Assembly: GCA_002633005.1 (NCBI GenBank)
Contig: NMRA01000324.1
Coordinates: 195,230 to 239,901, forward strand
Source of the DNA: Phoronis australis
Taxonomy: Eukaryota; Animalia; Phoronida
Direction of reading: 5' to 3'
Length of the DNA stretch: 44,672 nucleotides
Positions 758 to 38,899 of this stretch are shown here, one piece after another (the first letter of the stretch is position 1; each line of letters starts with the position of its first letter). The translations under genes and the position numbers were made by a program. Below the pieces are notes generated by a model. The model was not told the DNA's origin. It saw nothing but the letters and a program-made list of their open reading frames with translations, and did no database searches.

Positions 758-1011
758 CTCCTCAAAGATGCAGGATTTGCAACAGAACAAATCATAGGGC
801 GAGGGACTGTCGGGCGCCCAGAACTGTTAACGCCCTAGACAAAGAACCAATCAGATGTTTCTTTTGTAAAAAACCTGGCCACATGAAACGTGGCTGTTTC
901 AGTTTTAAAAGATTTTTGGCCGCCCAAGCGAATCAGAAGCCAGTTAATTACTCTGACAACCCAAGCCCTGCTGATACCACACCACATGACGTTAACCCAC
1001 AGGGAAACTAA
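758..1011 (+). pseudogene. gag: gag 3' end (nucleocapsid, two CCHC zinc knuckles)
   Basis: CRICNRTNHRARDC and CFFCKKPGHMKRGC (CX2CX4HX4C), with stop TAA at 1009-1011. Upstream part is replaced by the inserted LTR. Confidence 0.9.
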
Positions 1012-1043
1012 TGTGCACTGACTCGAGAGCTTCCGCGGGTCAG
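1002..1043 (+). promoter_or_regulatory. Programmed -1 ribosomal frameshift signal (gag-pol)
   Basis: Heptamer G GGA AAC (1002-1008) in the gag frame directly before the stop; pol is in the -1 frame. Stem CTGACTCG(1018-1025)/CGGGTCAG(1036-1043) follows after a 9-nt spacer. Confidence 0.85.
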
Positions 1044-1960: not shown

Positions 1961-1966
1961 GATAGC

Positions 1967-3221
1967 AAAACAACTGAAAGCGCTCTGAGGAGCGAAACTT
2001 GGCGAAATTAACCAAAAAAAAAACACGTTCGAGAGGACGAGAAAAGACGACGACAGAGATGATGACGAAGATGACAGCTATGACGACGATGGTGGCGATA
2101 ATGGACAACCCTAGTTATGATATCATTCATATAACGAACGTAGAGGTCAGAAATCACTAAGAAATAGGCTACAGTCTTGAGCTACACTTGGCGAAATTAA
2201 CTGAAGAAAAGACGACGTCGGAGATGATGACGAAGATGACGAATATGATGATGGTGGTGGCCATGATGAAGAACATCATAACATTCATATGACGAATTTA
2301 GATGTCATAAATCATTAAGAAATAGGCTGCAGTCTAGTTCAATAGAAGCTAAACCAACCTGAATGCAGCAAGAACGCTCAACAAAGGAGCAGCGTTATCA
2401 CAAAATCACAAATAACTCAAAAAGTAGACGTCGTAGAGAAAAATAGAAAGCATCTTCTGAAAGCCCGTTCAAAGCTCTATCTAAACTGAATGTACCGCTT
2501 AATTCTGTAAATTTTTCGAAAAAAATGAAATTTTGCGTTTTTTTTAAGAATTTCAAACTCAAATAACTCGAAAACGGTAAGTCTGAGAAAAAAATTGTTA
2601 CAGGCCATTTGAAAGATAATACTTCAAAGAGTCTACATGCAAAAAATCACGTCTTTTTCTCTTCCCGTTTAAAATCGCACTCCAGACGATTGAAAATGGG
2701 TCAACATGCGCCATATCCGCCATCTTGAATGCAACTTCCGGTTTTTTGGCTTTGAATAATAGCATGTTACAAGAAACTAACACCTGTAAAAATTCGAAGG
2801 AATTTGTCTGATAATGCGCCCTCTAGAGGAGAAAACGTTTTTAAGCCAAAATCGAGGTGCGCATGCGCGATCGCCGATATTTCCGCCATCTTTAGCCGGA
2901 AGTAAACAATTTCCGGTATACTTGTAGCAAGCTTCCGGTCCATTTACTGTGCCTTTTACGTAAAAAATTGTAGCCTCCAGAAGCATTTGAACCTTTAAAT
3001 GGAAACAAAATGGCCGCCACAGCCGCCATCTTGGATCCGATTTTGACGAAAAACAATAGGCTTCCAGTTCTTCCGGAAGTACGTGTTATGTGTAAATTTC
3101 GTGATGATCGGACGAAAATTGCGACCTGTATCGTGCGAACAAACAAAAAAAAAAACAAAAAAAAAAACAAACATAGTGTCAGAGCAATATACTTGGCAAA
3201 ATTTATTTCGCCAAGTAAAAA
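1967..3221 (-). mobile_element. Helentron-associated non-autonomous element (HINE/DINE-1-like)
   Basis: On the minus strand: T-run, 12-bp subTIR ACTTGGCGAAAT (3216-3205) with an adjacent partial inverted copy (3191-3202), a TTTG-type microsatellite (~3138-3172), a 3' subTIR (1997-2008), hairpin CGCTC-CTCA-GAGCG (1981-1994), and a terminal T-run. No coding capacity; pol resumes exactly after it. Confidence 0.8.
1997..2335. repeat. Diverged tandem duplication (two ~150-190 bp units) inside the HINE, each starting with the subTIR
   Basis: ACTTGGCGAAATTAAC...GAAAAGACGACG..GAGATGATGACGAAGATGAC...AAATCA(C/T)TAAGAAATAGGCT(A/G)CAGTCT occurs at ~1997 and ~2186. Confidence 0.85.
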
Positions 3222-6039: not shown

Positions 6040-6358
6040 AGACGTTGGTTCAGGCGAAGCCAGCGCCTCAGATGGAGGATCCAGGGACCCCATCATCTGG
6101 AAGCGAAGGACCCGTGTCCAAAGCCGAGTCGGATCCGATGACGGACCCCTCCGCACCAAACGACGAACAGCCTATGCCGTCGGATGAGATAGATATTGAC
6201 GTTGCCATGGGACCACGACCAGACGATGACGCCATGGATATGAACGTCCTTGCGACAAAAGTAGAAGCCGAAAGTGTAGAAAAACGAACCAAAATTCCTC
6301 TGCAGCATATTTAGATTTGTGTCGCATGATGTTAGAAACATTTAAGAATGGTCGATAA
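6036..6358 (+). pseudogene. Probable frameshifted acidic, low-complexity C-terminal tail of Pol
   Basis: The D/E/S/P-rich ORF 6036-6314 overlaps the pol stop, lacks its own ATG start and continues the composition of the integrase tail. A further shifted segment reads LDLCRMMLETFKNGR* to 6358. Confidence 0.5.
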
Positions 6359-6534
6359 GTAATTAAGGATTCAAATTTCAGCAGAACCATCTACCTTAAT
6401 AGCATACGTATATTTGAATATTAAGGACGGGACTGTTTCCCGAAAACTATATCTGACCTAAGGGTATCCGAGTCAGTTCTCGGCATGGCAAGTACTTTAA
6501 GTAGTATGAGGAGTGAGTTAAGTAACCTAAGTGA

Positions 6535-6549
6535 TTATTGTTGTTTCAG
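6535..6549 (+). promoter_or_regulatory. Candidate splice acceptor for subgenomic env mRNA
   Basis: TTATTGTTGTTTCAG| lies 7 nt upstream of ATG 6557, which opens a signal peptide; errantivirus env is expressed from a spliced RNA. Confidence 0.6.
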
Positions 6550-6556
6550 AGAGACA

Positions 6557-8586
6557 ATGCAACGATTAACGGGTTTGCTGTTGCTGGCTGGTATCGTGCA
6601 ATGCGTCACTGTCAAAAATGGGGTAGTTTTTGAGAAAATTAATTTATTTTATAGTTCGTGGGGACACTGGTGGGTGACGAGTTTTACTGACCTCACCGAA
6701 TTCTCTGAGTTCATGTCCCAGTTTTCACGGGACATAGAACATGCTTACTATACGCATACTCAAGTAAAGAAAAAGTACGCTGACCCCAAAGATGTCTTGG
6801 GATATTTTTCCAGATTGAGAAAACAAATTGATGATATCAGATTCACGAAAGAGGCCGTAGACGAGTTGTTGACTGGCTATAACACTTTTGCCCAATTTCG
6901 AGGTAACCGAAGCAAACGGAGCCTTCTGCCTTTCATGGGGAAAGTCAGTCATTGGCTATTTGGCACAGCCACTGATGATGATATTAAAGCTATTAGGGAA
7001 ACAATCGATATGATAGTGAGGAACCAAAACAGGATTGTCACTAACGCATTGAAAAGGGTAACCGTAATGAAAGCCACTAGAACCGAAGTAAATAGAAATC
7101 GAGAGACCTTGAATCAGATGACTTGATTCTTTCGACTTATGAAATAGAACAACGTCTTAATAACGTGACTGATCTGCTACATGATGAAATACAGGATTTG
7201 TCTGTCTTCACCAAGAGTTACATACACTTAGAACTCATTTTAAACCATTTGGAATTGGCAACGCAAAAAGCCTTAGGCTATTTAGCTCACATTGAAAGTC
7301 AAATAGGAATAGTGTCTCTGGGACAACTTACTCCAGCGGGGGTTCAGCCGGAAGCATTACGCAATATATTAAAGGACATACGAATAAATCTTCCACGCCA
7401 TTTAAAATTACCTTTTGATCCTGATACGGAGTTGTTCCAACATTATAAGTCTCTCCCGTGCCATACTTCGTGGGAAAATGGACGAATCTTAGTCACGTTT
7501 CGGATATCATTAATTGACACTTACGCACGTATGGAATTATTTCAAACTCATAATCTACCGGCTCCCTTCAATAATTCTAACCGCTCTCACATTTTGGCAA
7601 AGTATTCCTTGGAGGCCACGGCGTTAGCCATAAGCCCAGAACGAACGTCCTATGCCTTACTAGATTATGCCAACATGAAGGCGTGCTCGTCGCTTAGTTT
7701 TTGTGCGACCCGACAACCGTTACGGCCTGTCAATTTGAGCAAGGATTGTGTGGTGGCTCTGTTCATGAAATTTGACGATGCTATCAAAAGGCTCTGTCGT
7801 GTTTTTATTAAAACAAATACAGCCTTACCACAGGCCATATATCTGAGATCTGGCGGGTACGCTGTAGTTAGTAACGAGATTACAAGATTTGCCCTCCTGT
7901 GCAACCACAGTCGCACTAACACTAAATCAGTTACGGTGGACATTGGGGTAAATATGATACACGTCGATTACGGATGCCAGGCCACACACCCAACTATGAC
8001 CCTCCTGGGAACTTTTCACAGGGAATCTAGATACGAGCATCCTGATAGCTTCGCTCGAGTTTTGAGAATTCGGAAAGGATCCTTCACGATGTGGTCTCCT
8101 TATATTGCAGCCTTTCCTAAACATATGGAAGTAAAAATACCGCCACGTCTCGCTCACTTACCCGAAATTTCCCTGGACGGTTTAGTCACTGATTTACGAA
8201 ACTTGGAAATTCCAAAACCTTGGACCCCCGATAATGAATGTTGGTTATATGTCGCTCTAGGAATAGCAGCATCGCTATTAATTTTGTGGTTAATTGTTTT
8301 CTTGAAACGTAGACAAATTGCACGTGCCATACTCGAACAGTATCAGCCTGTGTTAACCGATGGTAGCCGCCCAGTTGCCAGTGCACCGCCAGCGTTCGTA
8401 CTCATGAGCACACCGAACGATGCCCGACAGAAGTCACCGGCTGGGGAGAAACCCAGTGCTGACTACCACCCAACCGTATCGACCCAGTGGAATTGCAAAC
8501 CAATCGAGATGAAGCAATTCGTCCGACGTATGTATCCTACCTTGGATCCGGAAACTGGAGAGGGCCAGAAGGAAACCTCCATGTGA
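6557..8586 (+). pseudogene. env: env: class I fusion glycoprotein (errantivirus Env/baculovirus F-like), one frameshift at ~7123
   Basis: Signal peptide MQRLTGLLLLAGIVQC; furin site RSKR (6908-6919) followed by the fusion peptide SLLPFMGKVSHWLFGTATDDD; heptad region; Cys-rich ectodomain with N-glycosylation sequons; TM WLYVALGIAASLLILWLIVFL-KRR; cytoplasmic tail. Confidence 0.9.
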
Positions 8587-8753
8587 CTTCGAGCTGTCAG
8601 TATACATCGTAGTAGTACTACTGAACCTTACAGTAGAGTACGCTAGATAGTCGCCAGGAAGGTGGTGGTGATTAACATTCCATATAGTCACAAGATATAC
8701 GTAACATATATATATATAAAATATGGAACTATAACCGAGGAACACGATCAACA

Positions 8754-9026
8754 ATGGCAGCCCAGCAACAGGAAGTTGTATACAAAACTTTGCCGGCGGT
8801 ACGACTGGATGTGTCGGTGGACGGCGAGTGGATTATGTTCCGCGTGGACCTAACTGCTGATATGACTGTTCTATCATTAAGCGACTTCGCTGGGGTCCAG
8901 TATTCACGGAGCCGTGCGTACCAGGGGTCCAGGGCGACAGTCAGACGATATCTGGAGGCTGACGACTTCCTTGTTTTATCATTCACTTTTTTATCTATTG
9001 CAGTTGTATGGCGATCACCTGGGTGA
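8754..9026 (+). CDS. Unknown 90-aa ORF between env and the PPT (putative accessory ORF4)
   Basis: Strong Kozak context ACAATGG, uninterrupted frame, protein-like composition; lies inside the element. No family recognised. Confidence 0.5.
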   Translation: MAAQQQEVVYKTLPAVRLDVSVDGEWIMFRVDLTADMTVLSLSDFAGVQYSRSRAYQGSRATVRRYLEADDFLVLSFTFLSIAVVWRSPG

Positions 9027-9091
9027 AACTTTACATTGTCGGAAAATCTACGACTTCCCAAAAATTTATTGTGTAAATGTTTTGGCTTAAC

Positions 9092-9103
9092 AAAAGGGGG
9101 GAG
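9092..9103 (+). promoter_or_regulatory. Polypurine tract
   Basis: AAAAGGGGGGAG immediately before the TG of the LTR. Confidence 0.9.
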
Positions 9104-9959
9104 TGTGATATAATGAGGCACTGCCTTCCACGTGCATGCGAACATGTCTTAAAATGTTCCCAGGGGATGTGCAAACTTCTGTTTTGTGTTCTCCACGTGC
9201 ATGCAAACATGTCTTAGTCTATTCCCAGGGGATGTGTATACTTCTGTGGTAGTTGAGATTCCTAAAGGATGTACATACCTCTGGAGTGGCAATTATATGG
9301 AGATTCCTCAGAGGATAGGCACATCCCTGGTGTAGCAAATATGAGAAGAGTGGCAGTTATGCAAGAATTTTCTATAGGATAGTCAATTAGCTGGTTATAA
9401 GAGAGATGTACTAAAAGAGGTGGGACCATCACGTGATGGCTCCAAAGGTATTATTTAAGACACTAACAGAAGCAGACCAACCAGACCGCACCAAACAGGC
9501 CAACTTGAGTCTTCGAAAACTGCGAAGTCACGATCTCCAGACAGTGAACGGCAGAGACGAGAACCAGGACCGGACGGAAAACCCACGAATCAAGTCTTAA
9601 GTATATACACGTAAGTGAGGAAAAGACATTTAACACAGGTGTTGGTCTCAGCATGTTAGTCAATTCGAACCAGTCTAGCGATTGTTCTAGAGGGTTAGTT
9701 CTGTTGCGACTTGTAGTGTGTTTGCATGTGCGGTTGCTACTGGTAACTAGTGACATTGTTGTTTAGTACTTTCTCTAGCAGTGATATCTCGTCTCATTCA
9801 GTTAATCGTCAGTCTCGCAACTTATTTTACAATATTTTTTGTAAATCACAACGCTGCAAATTAATAGACGTATTTTATTGGTTGAGGTATTCGTGTGTAG
9901 TTTTAATTACTACCACGTGCGCGCCATCTGTCGGCAGCAACACGAATCATTACACCACA
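9104..9959 (+). repeat. 3' LTR (856 bp)
   Basis: TG...CA ends; terminal inverted repeat TGTGATATAATGA / TCATTACACCACA (11/13); ~55-bp tandem repeat in U3 (~9128-9182 and ~9192-9246); TATA-like TATTTAA at ~9452. Confidence 0.9.
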
Positions 9960-10130
9960 GCATCTTCAACTTCTGATCATCCTCAATACACTATAATACC
10001 ACAAGGCATGACGCTCGGAACTAGGAATTCCATGAGTGCTTCAATCCACACAAAAATCTTCCCAAAATCCGTTGTCAGACCTTTTACGCTTATAGTGTAT
10101 CTGGGACGATCAGACTGAGGACGCCTGTGG
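9960..10130. mobile_element. Short internally deleted copy of the long-TIR element family; probable insertion target of the LTR element
   Basis: TCTGATCATCCTCAATACACTATA near the left end is inverted as TATAGTGTATCTGGGACGATCAGA near the right end. 9972-10041 also resembles 10552-10630. Confidence 0.6.
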
Positions 10131-10132
10131 TA

Positions 10133-10527
10133 CAGGGATTTATCGTAGATAAGCCCACCTGATCAAACACCCCTGGGTGTTTATTCGGAAAATTATGCCA
10201 AATACACGCCCATGGGCGTTTATTAGGTGTTACGACTTTTGGTGTTAAGTGTCCATACAGTGGGACGTTTATTTGGAAATTTTCCTCCTAAAAGATCACT
10301 CAGCGTCAACTTTTATAATTTATAAAAATGAACGAGGCGTTGGCGAATAATGCATTTGTTAACAAAAAAATAAAAACGCAGTGTCAAGTCAAGAAAAATT
10401 ATGGCATTCCAATTACACGCCTTCTTTTCACAATAAACGCCCAGCTGTTTATTTGGTGTTGCTACAACGCCTGAAAATTTTTATTTTCTGATTACACGCC
10501 CATGGGCTTATCTACGGAAAAGCCCGG
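10133..10527. mobile_element. Tc1/mariner(pogo)-type MITE with TA target duplication
   Basis: TA|CAGGGATTTATCGTAGATAAGCCCA ... TGGGCTTATCTACGGAAAAGCCCGG|TA; internal palindromes such as AAACACCCCTGGGTGTTT and ACGCCCATGGGCGT. Confidence 0.8.
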
Positions 10528-10529
10528 TA

Positions 10530-12158
10530 CAACTCACAGAAGTCCTCAGTTTCTGACCGTACTTAATACTCTATAAATATGTACCACAAGGTATGACACT
10601 CATGAATAAAAAATTCACGGGTGCTTCACTATTTCACTACAGCCGTCAATAACAAACGCAAAAGTCACTAAATTTGCACAAAACAGGGGTTGAGCAAACC
10701 ATAAGCAATTGTTCTTTCTTCTGATAGCATTTACAGTGTCCTGCTCTGGACAGCCAGTGCGCACAAAATCACGGTCGAACAGAAAATTCTGTCCAAAAAC
10801 CAGATACGTACTGTCCATGAGTCCCACGCGAGTCGATACGGAATTATCTGATAACGTACGGATGGACGGCAATTGCCGATTTATCACGGATGGTTTCAGA
10901 GTGGTCTGGAAAAGTGTGGAGTTATTAATGTCGTAACCTTCCGCAACGAATCCGTACTTTCCATGCAATACATCAAAGGTTAGCATCGGCTTTTGGAAAC
11001 ATTTTTCTGCTTTGATTGCGAATTTGTTGCGAACTCGCTGGGGCAGGAAACCGTAAATGCTAAGCAATTGCATCGCCCTGGATGCTGCAGGCATGCAGGG
11101 GCGATAGTACGTCCCCACAAAAAGTTACAAAGTTCAAAATACAGCAAATAAAATCAAATGAAGTATGCACATATGCAAATGGAGTTATAATTGACACACA
11201 CCCTAAGTCAGGAGAGGATTCAGTCAAGAGCGACGAAAATCTGTCGCGATTTGCCTACACGTAGCCCTTCGGTTGGCCGGTTACAGCCCACAATACTTCC
11301 CATCGCTTTCTGTACGAATTTTGTCTTGTGTATTTTAAAAACGAACGATAGGCCAAGTCCGGTAACCAATTAAGAGGTTTCACCTGGTCAAAAATACATT
11401 CCATACTTAAAACTATGGCTTAAAAAAGCGTTTACTTTCTTCAATGGTTCTTTCTACTTATACACATCTTCGCTTAGATACGGACATTAAGGTGACTTTG
11501 GCGAAGAATACCAACTCCCCTTTTTTCACCACGCGCGCTATAACCACAACGTATTTCAAAAGTCACGTGAGAAAGGCAAAGGCTAGCGCGACACCGAGAG
11601 AAGCGCTTGAGGCTGGAGCGTGACACTGGCACAATAGCATGGGAAGGTAAGATCTGTGTCCCTTGGACTTTTTATTCGTCAACCTTCGTGATTTCACGTA
11701 ACTTCCTCAAAATGGCGCCCGGTAAGAGAAACTCGAGCAAATCGAGACAGATTTTCATCGATTTGTTCAAATCATCTTGGCTGAATCGTCTCCAGACTTA
11801 TGATGCAGTATGTGTTAATTATAAGCCCATGTGCATATATGCATGTTTCATTTGATTTAAATGCTGTATTTTGAAAGTCGTAACTTTTTGGAAGGATGTA
11901 CTATCGCCCCTGTATGCCTGCGTCATCCAGGGCAATGTACAGTAATTGCCTAAGCTACGTGTTGCCTACGTAACAGCTTTCAGAAGAAAAAAACATTTAC
12001 TCGTGGTTTGCCGGACCCGTTTTGCGTACAGTTATTGAGTTTTGGGTTTGATACGGTAGGCTGAAGTGAAGCACCCGTGGAATTCCTAATATCTAGTGTC
12101 ATACCTTATTGAATTCGGAGACGATCAGAAGCTGAGAACGTCTTTGGGATAATTTGTA
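10530..12158. mobile_element. Non-autonomous DNA transposon with very long imperfect inverted arms (foldback-like)
   Basis: Left arm ~10530-11256 is the reverse complement of right arm ~11737-12158 in several blocks, e.g. GCAGGCATGCAGGGGCGATAGTAC / GTACTATCGCCCCTGTATGCCTGC and AAGGTATGACACT / AGTGTCATACCTT. TA at both ends. Boundaries approximate. Confidence 0.75.
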
Positions 12159-12932
12159 TACTCTTACAAACATTACCACGGCATTCAAAGTAAAGAAATA
12201 TGAAAATCACCAGAAATCTGAAGTTCTCTGTCAAACTTCTTCACTATTGTGTCTGTTTCAGACTATAGAAAACCTCTAAACAGCTCAAGTGTTAACGGAA
12301 ATTTCAAAATGGCGGTTAACAATGAGAGTCATTTGGTGGAAAATTTTCTTTAAAATATAAAATTACACTGTACACTAATACATATGGTGTCAATTAAGTT
12401 TTTTATGAAAATTAAGAGTTAAATTAGTGGGCAAGCCTTTAACTGCCCTCATGTGTTGAGGTCTGTGCTCACTGCTCAAACATTATGGCGCCAGCATCGT
12501 TTTTGCACTAGCGGGCCGTTAGGGAAGGGTTCACTAGGTTAGTGTTGTTGGACCGTATTGGACCATTAGTAGCCCAGAAACGTAAACCGGTATGCGGTAC
12601 ACGCGCTAACAAGCAACAAATATTCAGTTCTGGGTCAATACGGTGATGTTTACTGGATATGTCATTATTGAAATTATACGACATTAAATAGTGACTGAAC
12701 GACTGACCGAGGAACAAAAGTAAAACGCAATTAAAATAATTTTGTCAATGTTGAAACCGAAGATTTGAGTCTTATCGACCTTTTCTCATCTTTAAACTCT
12801 ACCTGCTCCAAGAAAAGCAAAACTGAATGGATACCACTAACGTTAGGTATTTTTCCGTCGGCTATCCCTAAGCAAATTAATTCCTCCGGTATTAGCATAT
12901 GGGCTTGAGGTCTCCAACCTAAATTGTGAGCA

Positions 12933-13088
12933 CAGTGACGGATTTAGACGGGGGGGGGGGCAAGGGGGCTATGCCCCCTAAAACTCTCCCTCATTCCATT
13001 TGGCAGTTTGGGGTTTCGAATGTCTGTCGGCAAAATCCTGTCTAATACTGTGCTCTGGCTCCCAAATAAAATCCTGGATCCGCCATTG
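12933..13088. mobile_element. Small MITE with CAGTG(G)CGGAT..AG-type TIRs
   Basis: CAGTGACGGATTTAG ... CTGGATCCGCCATTG with an internal GGGGGC-TAT-GCCCCC hairpin; no clear TSD. Confidence 0.7.
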
Positions 13089-13915
13089 GAGTCTGCTGGA
13101 AAACTAACCAATCATACCATTTAAAAAGATCACCCGATGTGTTACTTGTTTTTAATCAATTTTCGAGTGAACTTGTTGATTTGGGTCTCTGAATCAAGGT
13201 ATTGCTATATCAACAGACTAAGACATCTATATGCAGCAACAGCGTACCTACCCAGAGGGTTTGTTTACCAACTACAGTGTACCCATTTGTGACGCCATTT
13301 TACCACATTTTGCACTTCCACGTATTGTATTCTATAATATTTCTGAAAAAGCTTCCTAAATGTAAAGAAACATTTTTCGCTCGGTTTTCGAATGGGTCAG
13401 GGAGAAATCTGTCCAAGAAACTAAAATTTTACAACTGATGTGAGACTTTACTAACTGGTCTCGCATTTGTACCCACAATCGACACTTCACAACTTTTCAG
13501 TACAATTTAACCTACAAATCTGCTTCGAAGTTTTCAAAATTGGAAACTTGCCAATCGCGTGCTTCCCCTGATAGTCAAATCGTGATTAGCTGAGTATTGG
13601 TTACTTTTAGAACAGGATTGTGCGTACGCGCGATTGAGTTATCAATGAAACAAGCGCTCAGTGCAAACTGTTTGCATTTGAGACACAAAGGGAATTAACT
13701 TTGACGGGTAATACCGATAAATACTTGTTTATTCAACCAAAATTGTGAAGGTGTCGATCGTTGGTACAACGATGCTAGATTTTCGATGACAACCTCCATT
13801 TTATTACAGACCAAGCAGATATCGTAGCCTTTTGCTCCCACCGAGCTTGCTCTTGCTCTATTTTGGTTTACTGATTAAGGGAGAACTAACAAAGTTGACA
13901 TGCAGTCATCGTTAC

Positions 13916-15790
13916 CTGAATTCTTGCTTGACGTATTGGCTGCAACTCATCTCATCACTTGCGTCTTTACAATCGTCTACACCATCACACAATGCCACCT
14001 CTGAGATGCACGTGCCATCACTGCAAGTCCACTGTGATTTTGAGCAACTTCTAGTCGAAGCGTCTGGACTGATTTGACAGAAAACACTTAACAGCACCGG
14101 AAATTGATTTGAGAAATCTGCGTCGCAGTCAACATCAACAATTTTCCAAACAAAGTCTGGATTTTCAAATGCATTACTTTCAAATTCGGGGGAATACAGT
14201 TGTCTACATGTTGATGTTTTCAAGATCCAAACTGGGCCATATTCCGGGCGGAATCTAAAAGCTGGCATTAATATGTTTGCAGTCATTGCATTCGGCGACG
14301 CGATCACACCTCCGATGTTTGAGCATACGGTGGTGGCTTTAGAATATGGGAAAGCATATCCTCGAAGCCCTAGAGTAGTTTCTAATCGGAAACAAGTGTC
14401 ATTAAAATAGGTCCACGACTGGGGGCATTTCTTAATGGTACCACGAAAACCACGTGTCCTTAGTCTTGGTGGAGAGGTTTCTGGATGCGTCATTGGTTTG
14501 CTTGTTTCACAGACTATGCCGACGGAATAGAGCGGGTAGTTGCAGGGGACTAAAAACCAACTGCCACCAATGTAAGGGTTCTGTACAACCATTACAGTAC
14601 ACTTGCTTCCTGGATCATTTAAGGGTTGGTAATTTTGATCGGAAATAAATGACACCGTAAGCGTGCCCGGATAGAACTTCGATCCAGTGTACGGAGCGGC
14701 ATCATCTCCTGGAGTGTACCATTTAGAATAAATGAGTGGATTACCGTCGTTCCATTGATTACCAGTCTCGGCGTAAACGTTTAATCCTAGGAACAACGCG
14801 ACGTACTTTGAGATGGAATACAGCTTTCGTTTCCATTTTGTTTTCAGCATCGATAATATGAACTCATATTCCTCTTTCGTGTTAATGGCCAATAAATGTC
14901 CGCCATCACCAATGCATTTCTCCGAAGCACGCTGCCATGTATTATGAAATATAAACGGTCTCTCGTTTACATGGAGTCTGTAACACTTTTCACTGAAATA
15001 AACTTCATCTGACGAAGAACAATTCAGATTGCTGACATCGGGCACCTTATCGTGTTTTAGAACACGGTAGTCAATTATCAGCGGTGGAAGAATACGTCCT
15101 TCGTTGGGTTGATATCTTATTTCTATCTGGTCTGCCGCGACAGTCAACATTCTGAATGGATCTTTGGTGTATTTGGAACACAACGGTGTGTAAAAATCTG
15201 TTACTGTATTGCTATCTGGGCGATAACTAAACATGTGGCTATTGCAAGCACTCCGCGAGATTACCTCATTGATTTTTATAGTTTTTGACAATATAAAATA
15301 GGCGGAAATATTCAATTCGAACGTAGATGGACTATCAGATTCACTGAGACATGCCTGCGTACTAATACCATAGGTTAATTTCCAGTAGACATAGTCAGTG
15401 CTATCTGCCTGATGTAAAGATCCACAAGCCGACACTAGCTCAGAGACATTATTCCTAGTCATCCTGTATGGCTGGTATATATCACAACTTAGTTTCATAG
15501 ATACGTCAGACTGGACTATATCAAACACAGACAGAATATTTAGATTCGACCACTCAAACGCCGAATGAATACGCATAAGGCGCAGGTGATCTCCCGAGAA
15601 GTTTAAGACTAGTTCCCTTGATATGAGCTGGGTTTTGTCTTTGAAGCATTCTGGCATTTTGTTGACAAACGAAATATAGTGAAGACAACCTCGACTGTTA
15701 TACATTCTCACTGTGTCTGTGAATCGTTTGTAAACGTTAATGCCAGAAATATCTGGACTAATCCGTACGTTAACGTCCAATAACTCATAT
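13916..15790 (-). CDS. Paralogous receptor ectodomain exon, 5'-truncated at an N (unknown region, 2 C-type lectin domains, LDLa)
   Basis: Open frame collinear with the C-terminal half of the 1200-aa ORF. Homology starts exactly at the N at 15791 and ends at TTCAG|GTAAC (donor at 13915). Confidence 0.8.
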
Positions 15791-17987
15791 NAAGTTTGGT
15801 TATTCCTCAAATTGAAAATGGACAAGAAAATATTCAAAATCCAATAAAATTAGACCTCCGTAAGGTGCGATACACCAAATGGTATTTTAAAAGGTTGCAT
15901 TAAGTTCCAAGAAACTCAACTCTTACTGTTTCGAATATAATAAAAATTTAGGTTATTTAAAACAATATTTAGTGACCTCAACTTTATTTGAGTTTAAATA
16001 CAATCTAGGTTATGTCAACAAGTGAAACTATACGTTTTCTCAAATTAGAAAGATCATGGATTTTGAAAATGCGTTTGTTATCAGTTTGTCATTACCATGT
16101 TCACAACTACATTTTTTAATGTAAACTTTTAAAGACTTTTGTGTAAGATTATTTTGGTTATTTGCTTAGTTTGAATGAGTTTTAAACTAAATCACTTTGG
16201 AAAAAGAAATTATGCAGGTGAAAAACAGTATTCTTAAAAGTAGTTGTCAAATAATAAAAGTATACGACATACTGAGAAACCATAACGAAGTTTTGAAATC
16301 GATAGATGGAAAGTTTAATTAAAGTTGCTAGGGACATTTCCGAGAATTCGTATTCCTAAGTTCAAACAAACTTGTTCGATGGGAGCCGAATAACATCGAC
16401 AAACGCTACGACCCTTGTAGGCATCTGTGTGCAAAGACAAAAACGTCCAAACAAGCAAGTTTATTGTGCCAATTTACTAATTACAACTTGACATCAGTTT
16501 CTGGTACTTCAAACATTGCCACACACAGTTTCAAAAGTTTCTCACACAATTGGATGTCAAATTAAACCTCCCCAGAGTCAAACGATGATAATTTTCAAAT
16601 TTCCTCACGTTTGTATGCTAATGTAATACAAAACTAAAAATTGGTTTTAAGTATACACACTGTTTTCGCAGAGAAAATTTGCCAGAGGGGTCAATAAATT
16701 TAGATAAAACAAGAATATGAAAATTAGAAGCCGTGTGCCACATTTTATTATTCATGATTAAAATTACATTTTTGTTTTTGATATTTAATTATTGTATTTA
16801 TGCGCTATTTAAAAGGGGTTTGGAAACAGAATATCCATGTTAACATGTTGCGAAAACTTTAAAGTGATGACGTTTTTGGTTGTCACACGAACGATTCAAT
16901 GAGACAAGTACCGCAACAATCCTTTGCTAAATGTATGACTACATAACGATCATTTTGTCACCACATTTGTCCACGCTATTGCCTGCATAGATAAACTGTA
17001 ATAAAGTACATATGGAACTACACGTTAGAAGCCAGTTTCACTTCTCCTAAGAACTTTGAGAAAAGTAATTGCCATTTGACATAATGTAGAGGTATTAGCA
17101 ACAAAATGTATCGTAACCACCTTTATTAAAGAATGTTTCTTTTAAAAAATATTTTGCTGTAACGTATTACGAGAGTTTGTGATTAAGTTTAGACCTAGAA
17201 AGTCAAGTTTCAACAACGTCATTTTAATGCACTGCACACCAAGTGTAATGTTTATTGATACTCTTCGCTTCATTTAGTTCAACAGACAACATTTCACACA
17301 ACCTCACCGATTGTATAAACAATACAAACCGATCTGCGCACAGTAGCAGCTTTCCTTGAGCCTGCACTTGATTGATTTTGTCGATTCCGTCGCGTCAACC
17401 GACTAAAGACTCCGGCTTACAGTCAGATGTCCCTATTTATGTTCAACGAACTCCGGGCTCAGTTTTTAGTTACATTATTAGAAAATGTAATTAATTGAAA
17501 ATGAGCTTATAATTATGATGAAATTATAGAAAAAAAACATTGCATCTGTGAGTCCATATAGACAAAAATTTTCAAAATTGGACACTTACCAATCGTCTGC
17601 TACTTCTGAACTTCAAATTGGCATTAGCTGCGTATAAAAAATCGGTAACTAACCGAACATGAGCTGTGTATTGGCTACGTTCAGAAGAACAAAATTTTGC
17701 GCATGCACAATTCAGTTTTTAATGTGGCATGCGCGCAGTGCAGGACATTTGCATCTAAGGCATGAACGGAGTTCACTGTAAAGGGCAATACCGTTAAATA
17801 TTGTAAGCATGTCTGTCGTGGGTAAAATAATTATAGATTCTCGATGACTACATAGTTCAATGTACTGCAGACTAAACATATATCTTAGCGGGTTTCCCTG
17901 ACGGAGCTTGAACATTTTTAGCCCTGTTAAAGTCTTAGTTTAACGACTACGCAAGAACCAGCGAAGTTGTCATGAAATGATTATTAC

Positions 17988-20900
17988 CTGAATTCCTGGC
18001 TGACGTATTGACTGCATCTTGTCTCATCACTTGCGTCTTTACAGTGGTCTACACCATCACACAATGCCACTTCTGAGATACACGTGCCATCGCTGCAAGT
18101 CCATTGAGAGATTGAGCAGCTTCTAGTCGAGTCGCCTGAACTGATTTGACACAAAACACTTAACGGCACCGGAGAGTGATTTGAAAGATCTGCGTCGCAG
18201 CCAACATCGACATTTTTCCAAACAAACACCGGATTTTCAAATACATTGCTCTCCATTATGGGGGATTCCAGTAGTCTACATGTCGATGTTTTTAAGATCC
18301 AAACTGGGCCATATTCGGGGCGGAATCTAAACAATGACAATGATATGTTTGCAGTCATTGTATTCGGCGAGGAGACTACGCCTCCGATGTTTGAGCACAT
18401 GGTGGTGGCTATAGAGTATGGTAAACCAAATCTTCGATGCCTCGTACTAGTTTCAAGTCGGAAACAAACGCCATTGAAATAAGTCCACGACTCGGGGCAT
18501 TTCTTATTGGTGCCATGAAAACCCCATGTTTTTAATGTCGTTGAAAATGTTTCTGGATGCTGCATTGGCTTGCTTGTTTCACAGACTACACTGACGGAAA
18601 TACCCGGATGGCTGCAAGGCACGGAAAACCAGCTTCCACCAACATAAGGATTCTGTACGATCATTACAACACACTTGCTTCCTGGATCATTTAAGGGTTG
18701 GTAATGTTGTTTAGAAGTTAAGGAAACCAAATCATTATATGGACGGAACTTCTTTCTTGTGTAGGGAGCGGCGTTATCCCCGGGAGTGTACCATTTAGAA
18801 TACACAATTGGATTACCATCGTTCCATCGTTTATAGTTCTCTGCGTTAACGTTTAATCCTAGGAATAATGCAACGTAATGTGATTGTGAATATATTTTTC
18901 TTTTCCATTTTGTTTTCAACATCAACATTATGAATTCGTATTCCTCTTTTGTGTTAATGGCAAGTACATTTCTACCCCTGCCGATGCATTTCTCTGAAGC
19001 ACTCTGCCGTATATGAGAAGAATGCATTCTTAGACCTATATGCAGTGTGTAACACTTTTCACTGAAATACACTTCATCTGGCGAAGAACATTGTGGATTG
19101 CTGCCATCTGGCACTTTATCAGGCTTTAGAAGTCTGAAGTCAATTATCAGTGGAGGGTGAAATGTGTATCGGGTTTCATATAGTATCATTATCTGGTCAG
19201 CCGCGACAGTCAACATTTGGAACGGATCTTTGTTGTATTTAGAACATAGCGGTTTATAAACATCTGTGACTGTCGACCTATCCATGTAACTGTAATACAA
19301 GTACGAGTCACTGCTGCACGCCTCCATTATAATTTTTTCAGTGATTTCTATAGTTTCTGACAATTTACAATAGGCGGTAATATTCAATTCGAACTTATAC
19401 GGTCTATCAAATTCCCTGAAACACGTCTGCGCAGTTATGCCGTAGGTTAATATCCAGAAAACATTGCTAGTACTCTCGGGCTGGTGTAAAGATCCGCAAG
19501 CCGACACTAAATTAAAGTCATACGTTTTAGTCGTTCTGTATGGCTGGTATATATCGCAACTACGTTTCATAGATAAGTCGGACTCGAGTATGTCAAACAC
19601 AAACAGAAAATTTAGCTTCGACCACCCACGCCGTGAATGAATGCGCATAAGGCGTAAGTGATCCCCCGAAAAGTTTAAGACTAGTTCTTTTGACATGTAA
19701 TGGGTTTCAACCTGTAAGCATTCTGGTAGTTTGTTGACAAACGAAATGTAGTGAAAGCAATCTTGATTTTTCAACATTGTCATTGTGTCTGTGAATCGTT
19801 TGTAAACGTTAATGCCAGAAATATTTGGACTAATCCGTAGGTTAACGTCCACTAACTCATATCCCCTTGCGAATATATTTTGTTGCACAGCCAGGCAGCT
19901 TGCTATGGGTAACTGTATGTTAACAATGTTGTTTCGGACCATAATTCCACGGCACTCGAATTCTTCGATGTAAGCAAGAAATTTTGAATTTTTGTATCCG
20001 AGTACCAATGAGTAGTATACAATGGTTAGGTACGGTGAAGAACTTACAAAAGACGATATGATATGACCCGCTGTAAAATTTGAATTGTTTGCTGAAAAAT
20101 TTCCACATATCGGCCCAACAGCGTCAGAAGTCATGTTTACCCCATCGTATAAGACCAATCCTTGATACCCACAGTTCTCGTGCGCTATCAAATGAATTTT
20201 GGAAAAGAGAAGCTTTAAAAAGAATTTTTTTCGCCTAGTTTCAAAACGCCAGACACAATGTGTTGGCCCAAATCCGTCCCTATCAGAAAAAAATGAAAGC
20301 TTTAACGGAATACGACTTACTGTGTTTACGTCTTTGATTTTTGCAAAATAATGACATGTCGAGTGGTTTTGATTCCTTTTACCCTCGTATGAAATGACTA
20401 TCGATAAATCATTTGTTACAGTACGTGTGTCTAGCTTAACTTCTAATAACCCATGGAATATTTTTGCATTGATAGAGTGATTCGGATTGGTTACGTTTAC
20501 CAATAAAATTTGAGTACTTTGCATGGAAGACAAAGCTCTCGGTCCTTCATAAAATGACAAGTGAAACTCTAGCATTGGTCTTACATTTCTCACAGAGACA
20601 AAACTCTGAAGAACAAGATTATATGGAACAGCAATATACCACAAATACAAATAAAGCATCCGGGTGTGCTTTGCAAAAGAAAACGGCGGATCTTTATAAA
20701 GTATTTCTCTCTTATTTGGTTTAGATGATGTGCTATCGAAATTCACCAATCCAACACCTTTTTCAAGTACTACAAAATGCCACAATTTGTAAGTGGCGTT
20801 GAATTGCCAGCCAACTTGTCTCAATGTAATAGTTATCAAAAGCGCCCTACGCGAGGATGATACATTCCACGGATCTTTTTCACCACACGCCTTTTCGATT

Positions 20901-21586
20901 AGATAAAAAGTCTGATTTCTTGCCTCATATATCTTCATGTTTTCTGTTGAGCATCCGGGAGTATTGGTTGATGTAACAAATTGCGAAATGAGGACTTCTA
21001 TAGTGTGGTCAGGAAGTCCACTGATGTTCCAACTACACTTCAATGGGAATGTCACTGTTGTTTTGACACTTGGTTGAAAAATTCCGATATTTCCAACTGC
21101 TTCAGACACCGTGTGGTAGCAAAGATGCGACGTTTCCTCCAGCAACAGGGACGTGTCAACGACCAGAAAAAGGCGGACGCGAACCGAAGGGTACTTCCGA
21201 TATAGTAAAATTGACATGTTATTGTTTGTTGTAAAAACATCTTTGATTGATGGCCTCGTACATAACAAATGTCTGCTACCGTTTGTAAGCAGTTGTACAT
21301 TAGCCACATTGCAGCTAGCATTGTTTTCAAAATGAAATTCAACAACCATTAAAGTGGCAGTAAAGCCTTTAGGAACTTCAACAAACCATCTGGTTTCGTT
21401 TTCTTGTGCTCTATTTGTATTCGTATATCCAAAGGATATTTCCTTTCTTGTAGCTGAACTGTGTTGACAGCACACAAAAAATAATGCAAATGTCCATCCC
21501 CCGAACATGTGCAGCATCATATGGCTTTGTTGTTTTCTCCAAAATATTGTTCTAACAAGACGTAAGACATGACCCACGAATAACAT
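17988..21586 (-). CDS. Giant first coding exon of a secretory-pathway receptor: signal peptide, 3 CUB-like, 2 C-type lectin, LDLa (GRL101/LGR-like architecture suspected); gene continues via a splice donor
   Basis: 1200-codon open frame. Signal peptide MMLHMFGGWTFALFFVCCQHSSA (ATG 21520 likely). CUB motifs CSWNI..ACG and CVWRF..YDG..GPICG; CTLD motifs KCY..LAINTKEE..LFLGL..WNDG..W..C..VCE and CPESWTYFNGVCF; LDLa CSDGTCISEVALCDGVDHCKDASDE. The apparent stop is the TAA within AG|GTAAT. Confidence 0.88.
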
Positions 21587-30186: not shown

Positions 30187-32257
30187 AAGCTACATCCGAT
30201 TTCTAACTAAACTAGATGTTAGATATTTGTTTCATACGACTGTGAACGGAAGCTCATGTTGGCAGACATTTCAACATACGACGCAAAAACCCTTAATTCG
30301 GTATTTCATGAACTGTGTTTGGTTGCCTCACGGACCTGCGACTATGGTCTACAAATATCCCTTGTCAACAAAAAAATTGTTCTGAAAATCGCATTTGCGT
30401 TTTTCATTTTTTCTGTTTTTCCACATTAATTGTATTTTACAAGGAAGTGTGTTCGCTTCCGAATAATTTTATTCAAGTTGCAAGTGTCACAATAAGTGGT
30501 ACTTCAGGATGAGATGCACGCACGTCAGAGAATCAATGCCGGGGCACGTTCCGTAGCGCTACTCACTGAAGAGGCACTTGCGGAAAAGGAAATAGTTTCT
30601 CCAATTATGTTTTTTCTTTCAACTACACCGATCAGTCACCTCACTGACTGCTATTTTTGCTTGTACTGTAGGAAGGCTTCAGGGCATGTCACAAAGGACT
30701 AGCTTCTCGTTGGTATTACATGATCTTGCCAATGATGTAAGTGGTTTCAGACTGACTCAACGGGGACTCTAGCACATGCAAAGGTAGCGAATCCCCCTTA
30801 CACAAACTTGCTAATCCTGTGATGACAGATTAAAATAATTGGTGAAAGAGTGTAAGTATGAAATTGGTGAGCAGTCAATTACTAACACGCAATGATTGTG
30901 TTCTGTACAAGTCTACACGAACTCTGAATGCAGTTGTTTGATTTGTGATGAAAAGCATGTGGTTTGGGACGTCTGTCAGCTCCACTCACACGAGTGGTTG
31001 TTCTGCGGCACAGCAACAATGTTCGTAAGCATAGAAGTCCAATATAGTGAAACCAAGGTTTCTATTGGACACATCCTCTAAATAGAGAATGGAATACATT
31101 CGCTCATATGAAAAATTCTTTAATTATCATTGACACATTTGTTTTTCAAACGCGTTATTGAATATGAATGCCAATTAATAAGGTTTTTGCTTAATACCCG
31201 TTTTTGACTTAAGTGATTTTAAGATTATCGTACGCAGCTTTCACAGGATTTAACAACACATTATAGTAATGATCCTACTGTGTTCCAACAAATCCTATAC
31301 ATGTTTACCTCAAAAGCTAGGGCTAGAATTCCCCTTACGTTCAACCATCTCAGAATAATTGGTTTGCGAGTATTTTCCGGTATTAATAGGCCTAGCACAT
31401 CAGTTGGAACACGTCATACAAAACAATGAAGAATCCGGCACATTGAAAACAAACCAAAAAGAAAAAGGAAATCATTTGCTTAAACAGCTCCGCAAATGGT
31501 TCGTTCAAACACATCATTCAAGCTGATTCCAGCCAATCAGGATGTGGTACGTCTAAAAACTGCGGCCACCATCTTTGTCTCAATTGGTTACGAGCACAAA
31601 AGAACTGGTTTTACAACTCAGATCAACGTTATACGAAAGAAAACTGCGAACCTCTGATAAAAGCATATGTCAATTGGAAATAGGTCTGAGTAAGAAACTG
31701 AAGGAAACTGATAATCAATAATTATCTCAAATGATTTTAAGATTACGTGGAACATAGATCTTAGTCTTTAGCCGACTACCGAAAAATTGAAAAATTTTAA
31801 ACTGAGTAGTAATAGAAATTTTTTGAAAAATAGAAGTGCTGTCGAAATTGATTGCAGAGTATTAGCAATATGCCTTTAATTGAATGAAGCGACCATGTCC
31901 CCTTATGCAAAAATAACGAAACAGCTAGAAAGTTGCCTATATCAAAAAACAGCACTCAAACGCCAGTATATGCATCATCGTGTGGCTTTGCAATTTTCTC
32001 CAACGTGGTGATTTTCCGAACACAGGCAACATAGAACATGCCGCAATTGTATTTTGTTGCCAAGCTTCAGAGCCCATGATTTTTGCATAAATATGGTATA
32101 AAAAAATCGTGGAATCTTGTAGGCTCAGAAGCCGTTACCAGGAACCCGAATAATCAAACCTCATGGTTAAAAAACCGCTGCGCAATTACACGACGTTATT
32201 TCCATTTTCCCTTAATTCTTAAACTGAATGTGAAACAAACAAGAGCTGGTGAACTGA

Positions 32258-32375
32258 TATTAACCATAATTAATTTGAGAAGAAGGCAACACGACTCAAT
32301 GAAGATAGGTTTCTGAAACGCTACTAGCGCCATCTATACCTGAAACCGTGGAAGCATTATACAGTCCTTACAGTC
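32258..32375. repeat. Dispersed repeat, second copy at ~37463-37562
   Basis: TTAACCATAAT...AAGATA...TCTG(A/G)AACGCT..TAGCGCCATC.AT..CTGAAAC...CATTAT(A/G)CAGTCCTT in both places. Confidence 0.6.
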
Positions 32376-32949
32376 AACATGCCATCTCCTTCACGTAGCT
32401 AGACCCTACAGAAGACTACAAAACAGTGTAGACATACTTAAAAGTACAATTGGTTAAACGCACGACACTTTTCATTGTTCACAGTCTTCATTCCGTTGCG
32501 TTCATACCTTCGGAACAAAACTCTACTTTCAACTGAACATAGATAAAATAACTGACCTAGCGACATAATTAAGACACACGATATTTCGAAATATAATATA
32601 CTTGTTTCATTCTCAAGTGAAGATAAAATGATGCAGTAATGCCACCACAGAGGATAAGCTGATGACACACACAATGGGACACGGCGGGTGTGAAATACTG
32701 CAAGGAATGACGGATGAAGGTGGGTAAATGGAAAGTCACGCAAACAACTCTAACGTGCGGCGCAACCCTGATTGCTCATTCAAAACAGGCTTCTCAAAAG
32801 CAATTAAAAGGGACACTAATCGCAGTACGTCGTGCTTCACGTAACGAATTGACGTGTTTTCCACTCAATGGTCATTGGCTCTGGTCAGTGAATTATTCTG
32901 GCGATTTCCTGTCCCTGGCGTAACACAGCAACGCAAACTGACTATCACC

Positions 32950-36995: not shown

Positions 36996-38899
36996 ATTAC
37001 TTGTAATTACGAGCTCACAACTTGCAGCCAATTGCCTTAGTCGTGTGGGAAATTTGTCTATCGTCTAATTGGTGTTTTTGGCCAATCGAGATTGATAATA
37101 AATTTGTTTCAAATTGAACGTTACGCTTAGAATCAAAGTAGTCTTTCAGTAATCTCTTGACACCACGGAAATTATCAGTGTTAGAAAAGGTTTCAAATTG
37201 TCATATAGCGCCGAACCCTCATAGTGAAGCTCCCCCCGTCACTTGGAATTGCAAATGTCTGAAGCAACAAAAAGAATCTCTAAATTTTTAACCCATTTTG
37301 TACATCGCTGGGCTACGTTGCAATCCGATGACACGTCAAACGACCGCCACGACGAAATTCCTGCAGCCACATTTTTAGTTAAACCTCAAACCGCCTAGGT
37401 ACTGGAACTCTGCCTCGTCGCCAGTTTAGGGTATGTAGAACAAACAAGGAACAATGAACAGAAATTAACCATAATAACTTGACTAAATTAAGATAATAGT
37501 CTGGAACGCTTTTAGCGCCATCAATGGCTGAAACTAAAATCATTATGCAGTCCTTGCTGTTAAAAGGACAGCTCTGTAATCTCTAACACTGTCAACTAAA
37601 AGTTAAAGAAACAACAGATAATAATTTACGAAATACTTACCACGTACTTTACTGATGTAGAAATAAGACAAGAGGTTGAGGTAAATAGTGCACCGAAAAC
37701 ATTTTTTTCCAAATGACGTGATTGAAGGCACTTCATTTTACGAAAAGAGTAAATTACAACACAACAAAACCCTTGATGTATGTATGCCCGTGAGCAGCTA
37801 GACAACTGTATCGTCCAAGACCTAATAACAATAAGCACACTTGCGGACGCAAACACCTCGTATTGAATTAACGAAATGTAGTAAATATCTATCCGTTCGC
37901 ACCTTCTTTGCTTTTAGTAACTTTTTACAAAATTCAGTTCTGAAAAGACTGCATACATGTATACATGGACTTGAGAGTTTAAAGTCTAGTTGCCAAAAAG
38001 TTGATCCTGCATTACTGTTTACTGTAAAGTTTTCTTTTTGGAAATTTATTATATGTGGTTAGGAGAGTAAAAGTAACTTATTTGCATTTTGTGCAACTTT
38101 GATCATTTCGAATTTTGCCTAATTTCCACACTCTGAATATGATACAGTGTAGAATCCTGCAATTTATGGTTCCCAATGTTTTTGGGATGGAGAGTCCATT
38201 TCTGATATTATTTTATGGATGCAAGGTCAAAGTCAAGGTCAAATGAGATGTCTATTGTCACGTTGAACTGGAACAGGGAAAATTTATTTCGTTTGCTCGA
38301 CAAAATGTTAAATTTATGGGAAATGCGGTATTATCATGTCTGTGATTCCATTATATCAAGAAAAAGGGAAAGTCAAATACTGGAATAGGATACCCTCCCA
38401 ATATCTCAATAATTAATTTAAGATAATATTGTACCAGACCTACTCATGCCGCTCAGTAAGGCCCATCGCACTGATCACCTTGGACCATCTTTATGTTTTA
38501 TTAGTTGAAACAAAGCTGATGATCTGGGGACTTGACTCAAGCGACCAGCAGTGTGCCCCATGTGACTCGAAAACACAACCTTGAGTGGAGGAAGGACACT
38601 TTGTCATGCTGCCTGCTCATATTGAATAGGGTTACATGTATGTGTATAGATTACGCGTAATCCGTGCAGGGTAAATATGCGAAGACTAGTATGAGCACTA
38701 TTACTAATCCAGGGAAAACTAATAAACTATAACTTCCGGAACTATAAATAATATAAATTTCCCGGCTTTGAAAAACCGCCTGGCTTCTTCTACTGGGGAT
38801 TGATGACTCACTTGTTTTAAAGAAAATCCCACCCCATGCGTCGGTGTTCATAGAGAACAGCTTCAAGGCAATGGACCACAAGTCACTGACTGCAATAAG

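What the first reader, a model, noticed from the sequence alone, without database searches (positions are those of the whole stretch)
13916..21586. Tandem giant 'variable' ectodomain exons sharing one splice phase: possible protocadherin/UGT1-style receptor array
Seen: two paralogous multi-kb exons both end CSQYVxQEF-AG|GTAA (phase 2). I find no LDLa/LRR/TM exon between them or before the retroelement. Known: 'EFR|C' opens the next LDLa repeat, and CUB/CTLD-LDLa ectodomains in invertebrates often precede LRR and 7TM regions (GRL101-like GPCRs). Inference: each large exon may be an alternative first exon spliced to shared constant exons left of the window, giving a diversified recognition repertoire from one locus.
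Basis: partly seen in the sequence, partly recalled or inferred. Interest (0 to 1): 0.8.

Follow-up and report, generated by a model that had tools for sequence, protein, structure and literature searches.

The report
Duplicated GRL101-like lectin receptor front exons
Two related giant coding blocks encode the sugar- and protein-binding front part of what is likely a GRL101-type cell-surface receptor, and they most likely belong to separate duplicated genes split by an assembly gap rather than being interchangeable front ends of one gene, although that second reading could not be excluded.

Summary
On the minus strand a 1200-codon frame (21586-17988) and a paralog (15790-13916; 69% identical protein) both end in the same phase-2 AG|GTAA after an LDLa repeat. 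No LDLa/LRR/7TM exon lies elsewhere in the window.

The protocadherin-style reading gains no positive support. The shared phase follows from one duplication that also copied about 330 bp of intron. The N at 15791 cuts copy 2's exon and hides at least 1.7 kb if copy 2 is whole, so copy 1's own downstream exons may lie there. About 13 of the 13.9 kb below copy 2 is retroelement and repeats. In snails, such receptors form tandem clusters of whole, mostly single-ORF genes, each with its own 7TM.

RNA gave no junction at copy 2's donor, so the decisive test is open. Unexpected: a roughly 1-kb, probably antisense RNA inside copy 2's exon, loosely recalling protocadherin-alpha. The scan noted a GRL101-like front end before, in a clam.

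Verdict: tandem GRL101-like paralogs (about 0.65); shared constant exons about 0.13.

The parts
17988..21586 (-). Copy 1: single 3599-bp coding block, likely the first coding exon. Predicted order: N-terminal leader, CUB (aa about 183-253) and further CUB-like beta domains, C-type lectin domain 1 (about 839-1005), C-type lectin-like domain 2 (about 1030-1149), LDLa (1156-1191). No 19-residue window above 1.6 hydropathy, so no membrane helix and no strongly hydrophobic signal peptide by that test.
17984..17987 (-). Putative phase-2 splice donor GTAA of copy 1; read-through meets TAA at once. Use not shown.
17659..17987 (-). Intron start duplicated together with the exon (homologous to 13915-13585)
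15792..17658 (.). Sequence between copy 1 and the gap; no LDLa/LRR/7TM coding piece
15791..15791 (.). Single-N assembly gap of unknown size that cuts copy 2's exon; three DNA contigs at 80% likeness or more continue here with exon-like sequence matching copy 1 at 19892-19863 (28 of 30 letters, compared by eye)
13916..15790 (-). Copy 2: visible 3' 1875 bp of the paralogous block (beta domain, CTLD, CTLD-like, LDLa), open frame, dN/dS 0.46 against copy 1
13912..13915 (-). Putative phase-2 splice donor GTAA of copy 2; use not shown
14020..15030 (+). About 1 kb of RNA coverage inside copy 2's exon, first mate on the minus strand (antisense to the gene if the library is of the usual kind); plus-strand AATAAA at 14891 and 14997 near the fading end; no splice or poly(A) loose end listed
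31943..32447 (-). Decayed relic B: similar to copy 1's leader and ATG region (157/245 identical, frameshifted, no long frame); its upstream part resembles relic A
37433..37760 (-). Decayed relic A: similar to copy 1's upstream flank 21923-21738 (67%) and to relic B's upstream part (149/235)

Best explanation
The two blocks are paralogous coding stretches for a CUB/C-type-lectin/LDLa ectodomain and are likely the giant first exons of separate, tandemly duplicated GRL101-like receptor genes, each predicted to splice to its own LDLa-LRR-7TM exons. Shown: the frames, the domains, the paralogy including intron start, the gap, and relatives with LDLa-LRR-7TM behind this region. Inferred: copy 1's remaining roughly 810 codons lie in the unsized gap at 15791, and copy 2's lie left of the window beyond an intron swollen by a retroelement and repeats. 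Also inferred: the receptor would bind an outside ligand (glycan, microbial surface or chemical cue) through its lectin/CUB region and signal through a rhodopsin-type 7TM and G protein. Diversity would then come from gene duplication, divergence and loss (two decayed 5' relics upstream), not from exon choice.
For: 34 of 57 CTLD-region hits among 190 stored proteins have a 7TM (near-duplicates included). Full architecture in separate gene models from Lingula (two LOCs), Lineus (two), Macrostomum, amphioxus and Saccoglossus. In Biomphalaria sudanica 12 GRL101-like genes cluster in 440 kb (PMC12297450, passages). In its Supplementary Data 7, 9 of the 11 rows with reference coordinates that I saw span exactly 3 x protein length (single ORFs of 3.3-3.5 kb), 10 of 11 have 7 TM helices, and both orientations occur; giant exons and whole-gene clusters are therefore family traits. 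Apple snails carry 29-132 GRL101 genes with tandem clusters (PMC6573481, passage). The duplication unit includes intron sequence, which explains the shared phase. The gap cuts copy 2's exon. Purifying selection between copies, dN/dS 0.46 (bootstrap 0.36-0.60), LDLa 0.16, fits functional genes. Among 49 stored 7TM proteins no pair had the same 7TM with a different ectodomain: 54 of 64 printed pairs had N-terminal identity of 0.95 or more, and 10 were uninformative.
Against: No downstream exon is seen for either copy: none in 2.2 kb below copy 1 and none in 13.9 kb below copy 2. All four related pieces (two blocks, two relics) face the same way, as a variable-exon array would. In the snail genes lectin-to-7TM is one exon, whereas here an intron apparently falls just after the first LDLa, exactly where a variable/constant boundary would sit. 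The probable antisense RNA in copy 2 resembles protocadherin-alpha exons. The shared-7TM test is weak: the pairs mostly come from the same 90% clusters, clustering at 50% could hide such pairs, and no relative closer than about 35% was found. The gap size is unknown, and no genome was held.
Confidence: 0.65

Rival explanations
1. Protocadherin/UGT1-style array: each giant exon has its own promoter and would splice to one shared set of LDLa-LRR-7TM exons left of the window, possibly with antisense transcription from within the chosen exon.
For: Same orientation and phase; no constant exon in the sequenced DNA; copy 1 has low RNA coverage reaching the bin that holds its ATG and none in the next bin upstream, which fits a promoter of its own; decayed 5' relics upstream; about 1 kb of probable antisense RNA starting about 100 bases inside copy 2's donor in two runs, recalling exon-internal antisense promoters of Pcdh-alpha (10.1101/360206, passages).
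Against: Phase, orientation and relics are equally expected of tandem genes. The gap may hide exons. No such design turned up for this family in the paper searches or among stored relatives. The RNA here fades by about 15030, at least 0.75 kb short of the gap and so far from any promoter, whereas the Pcdh-alpha RNA is transcribed through the sense promoter. No comparable signal on copy 1.
Confidence: 0.13
2. Orphan or truncated duplicates: one or both blocks have no downstream exons left and are either decaying or would be read through the donor to the TAA, giving a secreted CUB-lectin-LDLa protein.
For: A stop follows the donor at once in both copies; a retroelement and repeats fill the DNA below copy 2; sense RNA is very low and run X7 shows a little sense coverage in copy 2's intron bin, 0.57; partial GRL101 genes occur in the snail cluster.
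Against: Frames are intact with dN/dS below 1; the canonical donor and the junction peptide are conserved in both copies at dS 0.43; two X5 sense reads cover only 28 bases of the bin 13836-13927, which is what two reads clipped about 2 bases past the donor would give (my arithmetic; below the tool's 3-read threshold, a hint only).
Confidence: 0.14
3. Scaffolding artefact: the contigs on either side of N15791 (and N26660) are not true neighbours, so the two paralogs need not be in tandem at all.
For: The N falls inside a coding exon and no contig bridging it is listed; collapsed paralogs often mislead scaffolders (own knowledge); summed DNA depth at the LDLa end is 232 against 64 on a flank, hinting at further copies (the tool warns that depth is no copy number).
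Against: Related 5' relics elsewhere in the same window suggest a local cluster; tandem clusters are usual for the family.
Confidence: 0.08

Closest known systems
Biomphalaria sudanica SudRes2 cluster of GRL101-like CTL-LDL-LRR-7TM genes (PMC12297450)
   Same: Lectin-like domain before LDLa, multi-kb coding exons, tandem paralogs, partial copies, hyperdiverse region
   Different: There the whole lectin-to-7TM protein (about 1100-1170 aa) is mostly one ORF; here the block is longer at the front (CUB-like domains, 1200 aa) and stops at a putative donor after the first LDLa
Uncharacterised long GRL101-like models: Lingula XP_013411505 and XP_013411659, Lineus XP_064640791 and XP_064640008, Macrostomum PAA57333/PAA85960, amphioxus XP_078576616, Saccoglossus XP_006821766
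   Same: CUB...C-type lectin, LDLa repeats, LRR, 7TM; matches of 27-35% in the lectin-LDLa region
   Different: Only distant relatives; their exon structure was not visible to me; the middle of the ectodomain here (aa about 403-705) has no confident model or family
Lymnaea GRL101 / type C2 LGR (12 LDLa, 6 LRR, 7TM; Tensen 1994 as described in PMC8286064)
   Same: Predicted LDLa-LRR-7TM backbone
   Different: No CUB/lectin front end described for it; LRR and 7TM are not visible in this window
Vertebrate clustered protocadherin-alpha and UGT1A variable/constant loci
   Same: Tandem large first exons with one splice phase; for Pcdh-alpha, antisense RNA from within the exon
   Different: No shared constant exon shown here; the antisense RNA is short and does not reach a promoter; no sequence relation. 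UGT1A details are recalled, not from a call.

Membership tests
GRL101-like LGR (CTL-LDL-LRR-7TM type) | C-type lectin-like domain N-terminal to LDLa | tested here: met
   Lectin_C E 2.3e-4 (just under the cut-off) in copy 1 and 1.2e-9 in copy 2; LDLa above cut-off in both; tandem-CTLD fold matches
GRL101-like LGR (CTL-LDL-LRR-7TM type) | Closest relatives of the non-repeat region are GRL101-like receptors | tested here: met
   34 of 57 hits to aa 830-1150 carry a 7TM; the rest are mostly short or cut proteins; database names 'GRL101-like'
GRL101-like LGR (CTL-LDL-LRR-7TM type) | Further LDLa repeats, LRRs and a rhodopsin-type 7TM in the same protein | tested here: inconclusive
   Absent from the window; gap unsized, no genome, no junction reads
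Variable/constant exon array (Pcdh-alpha/gamma, UGT1A type) | Tandem paralogous first exons, same orientation, same donor phase | tested here: met
   necessary but also true of tandem genes
Variable/constant exon array (Pcdh-alpha/gamma, UGT1A type) | Each first exon spliced to the same downstream exon | tested here: inconclusive
   No joint or loose end at 13916 reached 3 reads; 17988 not among the rows shown
Variable/constant exon array (Pcdh-alpha/gamma, UGT1A type) | No constant exons between the variable exons | tested here: inconclusive
   True of the sequenced DNA, but the gap at 15791 is unsized
Variable/constant exon array (Pcdh-alpha/gamma, UGT1A type) | Own promoter per exon | not testable with these tools
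   Copy 2's 5' end is in the gap; copy 1 coverage was too low for a start site
Pcdh-alpha antisense mechanism | Antisense RNA from within the exon runs through the sense promoter | tested here: not met
   Coverage ends by about 15030-15120 and is zero from 15124 to the gap in both runs; nuclear RNA was not sampled, so a longer unstable precursor is not excluded

The most novel reading that the evidence does not exclude
An invertebrate GPCR locus built like clustered protocadherin-alpha: several promoter-bearing 3.6-kb exons, each a complete CUB-lectin-lectin-LDLa recognition module, splice to one shared LDLa-LRR-7TM signalling tail, with exon-internal antisense transcription marking or choosing the active exon.
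Probability: 0.13. Interest if true: 0.85.

Novelty: new member of a known kind. Interest (0 to 1): 0.3.

Why it matters
On the likely reading this is one more animal lineage with a fast-evolving tandem set of lectin-tipped GRL101-like receptors. The family has been linked to parasite resistance in African snails and to chemosensing in apple snails, but no ligand turned up in what I read. That is useful annotation of modest surprise. If the shared-constant reading were true, it would be a variable/constant exon design in a GPCR, for which my paper searches found no precedent, and a way to diversify recognition while keeping one signalling module.

Tried and rejected
No genome held. Word-index protein search of aa 700-1200: 0 of 2726 candidates passed; with an alignment, 1 of 7987, the query itself. 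Related loci: none in viral contigs, 0 of 16 pattern matches confirmed in prokaryote genomes, 0 of 590 in metagenomes; a 20-sequence alignment had no usable conserved stretch. No RNA holder listed by the run index; the RNA runs laid were additions by species label. The first lay was swamped by repeats, so the donor rows may have been among those not shown. The second lay covered copy 2 only, at 80% likeness, and copy-1-like reads in X6 did not reach the donor. The 2015 RNA contigs (X8) held no piece of the exon: 1 contig laid, on a short repeat. The ESM Atlas gave only generic CUB/lectin/LDLa clusters. The AlphaFold model is poor overall (mean pLDDT 52.5; aa 403-705 unmodelled) and was used only for domain boundaries. 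Scan for acceptors followed by a Cys codon: 4 sites below donor 1 and 8 below donor 2, none opening an LDLa. My first idea that the two upstream relics were one copy split by an insertion was dropped, because they also match each other; my by-eye guess of an RT relic between them got no tblastn hit. The first control for relic B was contaminated by relic A and was redone (119 against at most 38 in 568 windows; 121 against at most 55 in 566). Positive selection between the copies was not found. I left the third protein search unused because the 1.8-billion-protein search showed no close relative.
Full report
Observation. The minus strand carries an open frame from the ATG at 21586 to 17984 (1200 codons) and a second from the N at 15791 to 13912. 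Both end in an LDLa repeat followed by CSQYVxQEF-AG|GTAA, with last exon bases 17988 and 13916, phase 2. They are 433/627 identical in protein and 77% in DNA over 2235 bp, the match running about 330 bp beyond both donors. A profile and tblastn built from the post-LDLa parts of 17 relatives found nothing else in the window.

Anatomy. Pfam finds CUB (2 stretches, best aa 183-253), Lectin_C (861-993, just under its cut-off) and LDLa (1156-1191) in copy 1, and Lectin_C and LDLa in copy 2. A model from a 39-sequence alignment is poor overall (mean pLDDT 52.5) but has well-scored segments at about 181-270, 831-1005 and 1030-1190, with weaker beta domains at about 64-144, 311-402 and 708-820. Its best fold matches are tandem C-type lectin proteins and CUB proteins, and the second lectin-like domain weakly matches lectin chains by sequence (best E 0.003). 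No membrane helix, and no strongly hydrophobic leader, was found by a 19-residue hydropathy scan; there are 20 N-glycosylation motifs. Between the copies dN/dS is 0.46 (0.36-0.60), lowest in LDLa (0.16) and highest in the second lectin-like domain (0.73): constrained but fast-evolving.

Relatives. HMMER over 1.84 billion representatives gave 360 hits and no close relative. I took 38 of the 150 listed, those matching more than one short repeat, to Pfam; 20 of the 38 showed 7tm_1 among the five families displayed. Among all 190 stored proteins, 57 match aa 830-1150 and 34 of these have a 7TM; the other 23 are mostly short or cut (cluster near-duplicates are counted). Named ones are GRL101-like or uncharacterised models from Lingula, Lineus, Macrostomum, amphioxus, Saccoglossus and sea urchin. 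One unnamed 1171-aa protein, P0039, also runs CUB to lectin to a first LDLa and then stops.

Why the array reading is not established. First, both copies descend from one duplication that included the intron start, so a shared phase is automatic. Second, N15791 falls in the middle of copy 2's coding block. Three DNA contigs of run X2 continue there with sequence matching copy 1 at 19892-19863 in 28 of 30 letters (by-eye comparison; the table does not say whether one of them is copy 2 itself, and one is probably copy 1). If copy 2 is whole, the gap holds at least its 575 missing codons and may hold copy 1's downstream exons as well. Third, below copy 2 lie a gypsy-type retroelement (about 1-9900) and high-copy repeats (10000-13370; DNA depth up to 7059 against about 13 on copy 1), so a long exon-free stretch is unremarkable. 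Fourth, the family's known habit is whole-gene clusters: 12 GRL101-like CTL-LDL-LRR-7TM genes in 440 kb in Biomphalaria sudanica (PMC12297450; I saw search passages, and places 1-60 of 81 in Supplementary Data 7). In that table 9 of 11 rows with reference coordinates span exactly three times the protein length, 10 of 11 have seven helices, and both orientations occur. Apple snails have 29-132 GRL101 genes with tandem clusters expressed in tentacles and palps (PMC6573481, one passage). PMC8286064 (passages) describes the classical single-copy GRL101. Among 49 stored 7TM proteins no pair shared a 7TM with different ectodomains (54 of 64 printed pairs at 0.95 or more N-terminal identity, 10 uninformative), a weak test because of clustering.

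RNA. The index listed no RNA holder; three raw-read RNA runs were added by species label, and about 18-19% of each was read. Copy 1 has sparse coverage with the first mate on plus (sense in the usual library type): up to 2.6-fold in X6 and 2.1-fold in X7, reaching the bin with the ATG and absent from the next bin upstream. No joint or loose end at 13916 reached the 3-read threshold, and 17988 was not among the rows shown, so the decisive test failed for lack of reads. A hint only: two X5 sense reads cover 28 bases of the bin 13836-13927, as two reads clipped two bases past the donor would (my arithmetic). Against it, X7 shows 0.57-fold sense coverage in the intron bin, which may be read-through, precursor or a short repeat there.

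Unexpected result, against my preferred reading or at least not explained by it. X5 and X6 show up to 30-fold coverage with the first mate on minus, from about 14020 to about 14940 (X6) or 15030 (X5), and none from 15124 to the gap. If the libraries are of the usual kind, which I could not verify on a control gene, this is a roughly 1-kb unspliced antisense RNA starting about 100 bases inside the donor and fading near plus-strand AATAAA at 14891 and 14997. About half or more of these reads carry other letters: of the 16 best-supported RNA differences (352 rows were not shown) 10 change the amino acid and 9 equal copy 1's letter. So a divergent allele or a third close paralog is transcribed the same way. 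Protocadherin-alpha exons have exon-internal antisense promoters (10.1101/360206, passages), but that RNA passes through the sense promoter, which this one is not seen to do, and copy 1 shows no comparable signal. It is a resemblance, not a test met.

Surroundings. Two decayed pieces related to copy 1's 5' end lie upstream in the same orientation, at 32447-31943 and 37760-37433 (scores 119 and 121 against control maxima 38 and 55). They fit birth-and-death of tandem genes, dead variable exons, or in part a dispersed repeat. Summed DNA depth at the LDLa end (232 against 64 on a flank) hints at three to four similar copies; the tool warns against reading depth as copy number.

Mechanism and verdict. 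Shown: two paralogous giant ectodomain blocks with GRL101-like relatives. Inferred: each is the first exon of its own LDLa-LRR-7TM receptor gene, binding an external ligand through the lectin/CUB region and signalling through a G protein, with a role in defence or chemosensing suggested only by analogy to snails (0.65). Rivals: shared constant exons 0.13, orphan or secreted form 0.14, mis-scaffolding 0.08. Seven paper searches (listings only, apart from the four papers named) found no variable/constant design for this family; the library lacks most subscription journals, and bioRxiv supplements were closed. UGT1A details and scaffolder behaviour are recalled. An earlier scan note on a clam GRL101-like front end agrees but was not checked. 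Interest 0.3: a new member of a known kind, with a small open chance of something much more interesting that one junction experiment would settle.

Noticed in passing
window 996-8586 (+): Gypsy-type LTR retroelement: protease, RT, RNase H and integrase in stop-interrupted frames, followed by two env-like frames with weak Baculo_F hits (E 1e-3 and 3.8e-6).
   Followed up: partly
window 1-289 and 9908-9616: 83% identical copies in inverted, not direct, orientation around the retroelement; possibly LTRs of two separate insertions.
   Followed up: no
window 14020-15030 (+): About 1 kb of probable antisense RNA inside copy 2's exon in two RNA runs, from at least two sequence variants; more abundant than sense RNA of either copy.
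   Followed up: partly
window 13718-13758: Short repeat in the duplicated intron start; also in an abundant 496-nt contig of X8, in 133 X6 reads and in several DNA contigs.
   Followed up: no
window 37760-37433 and 32447-31943 (-): Two decayed pieces related to copy 1's upstream flank and start, and to each other.
   Followed up: partly
window 26660: Second single-N gap, between copy 1 and the upstream relics.
   Followed up: no
window 10000-13370 and 17455-17560: High-copy repeats that collect many RNA reads from other loci.
   Followed up: no
proteins P0094 (end) and P0006, P0044, P0014 (starts): Unnamed relatives on large contigs end or begin in the middle of the first lectin domain, suggesting two giant exons split there in other animals; inferred from protein ends only.
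   Followed up: no
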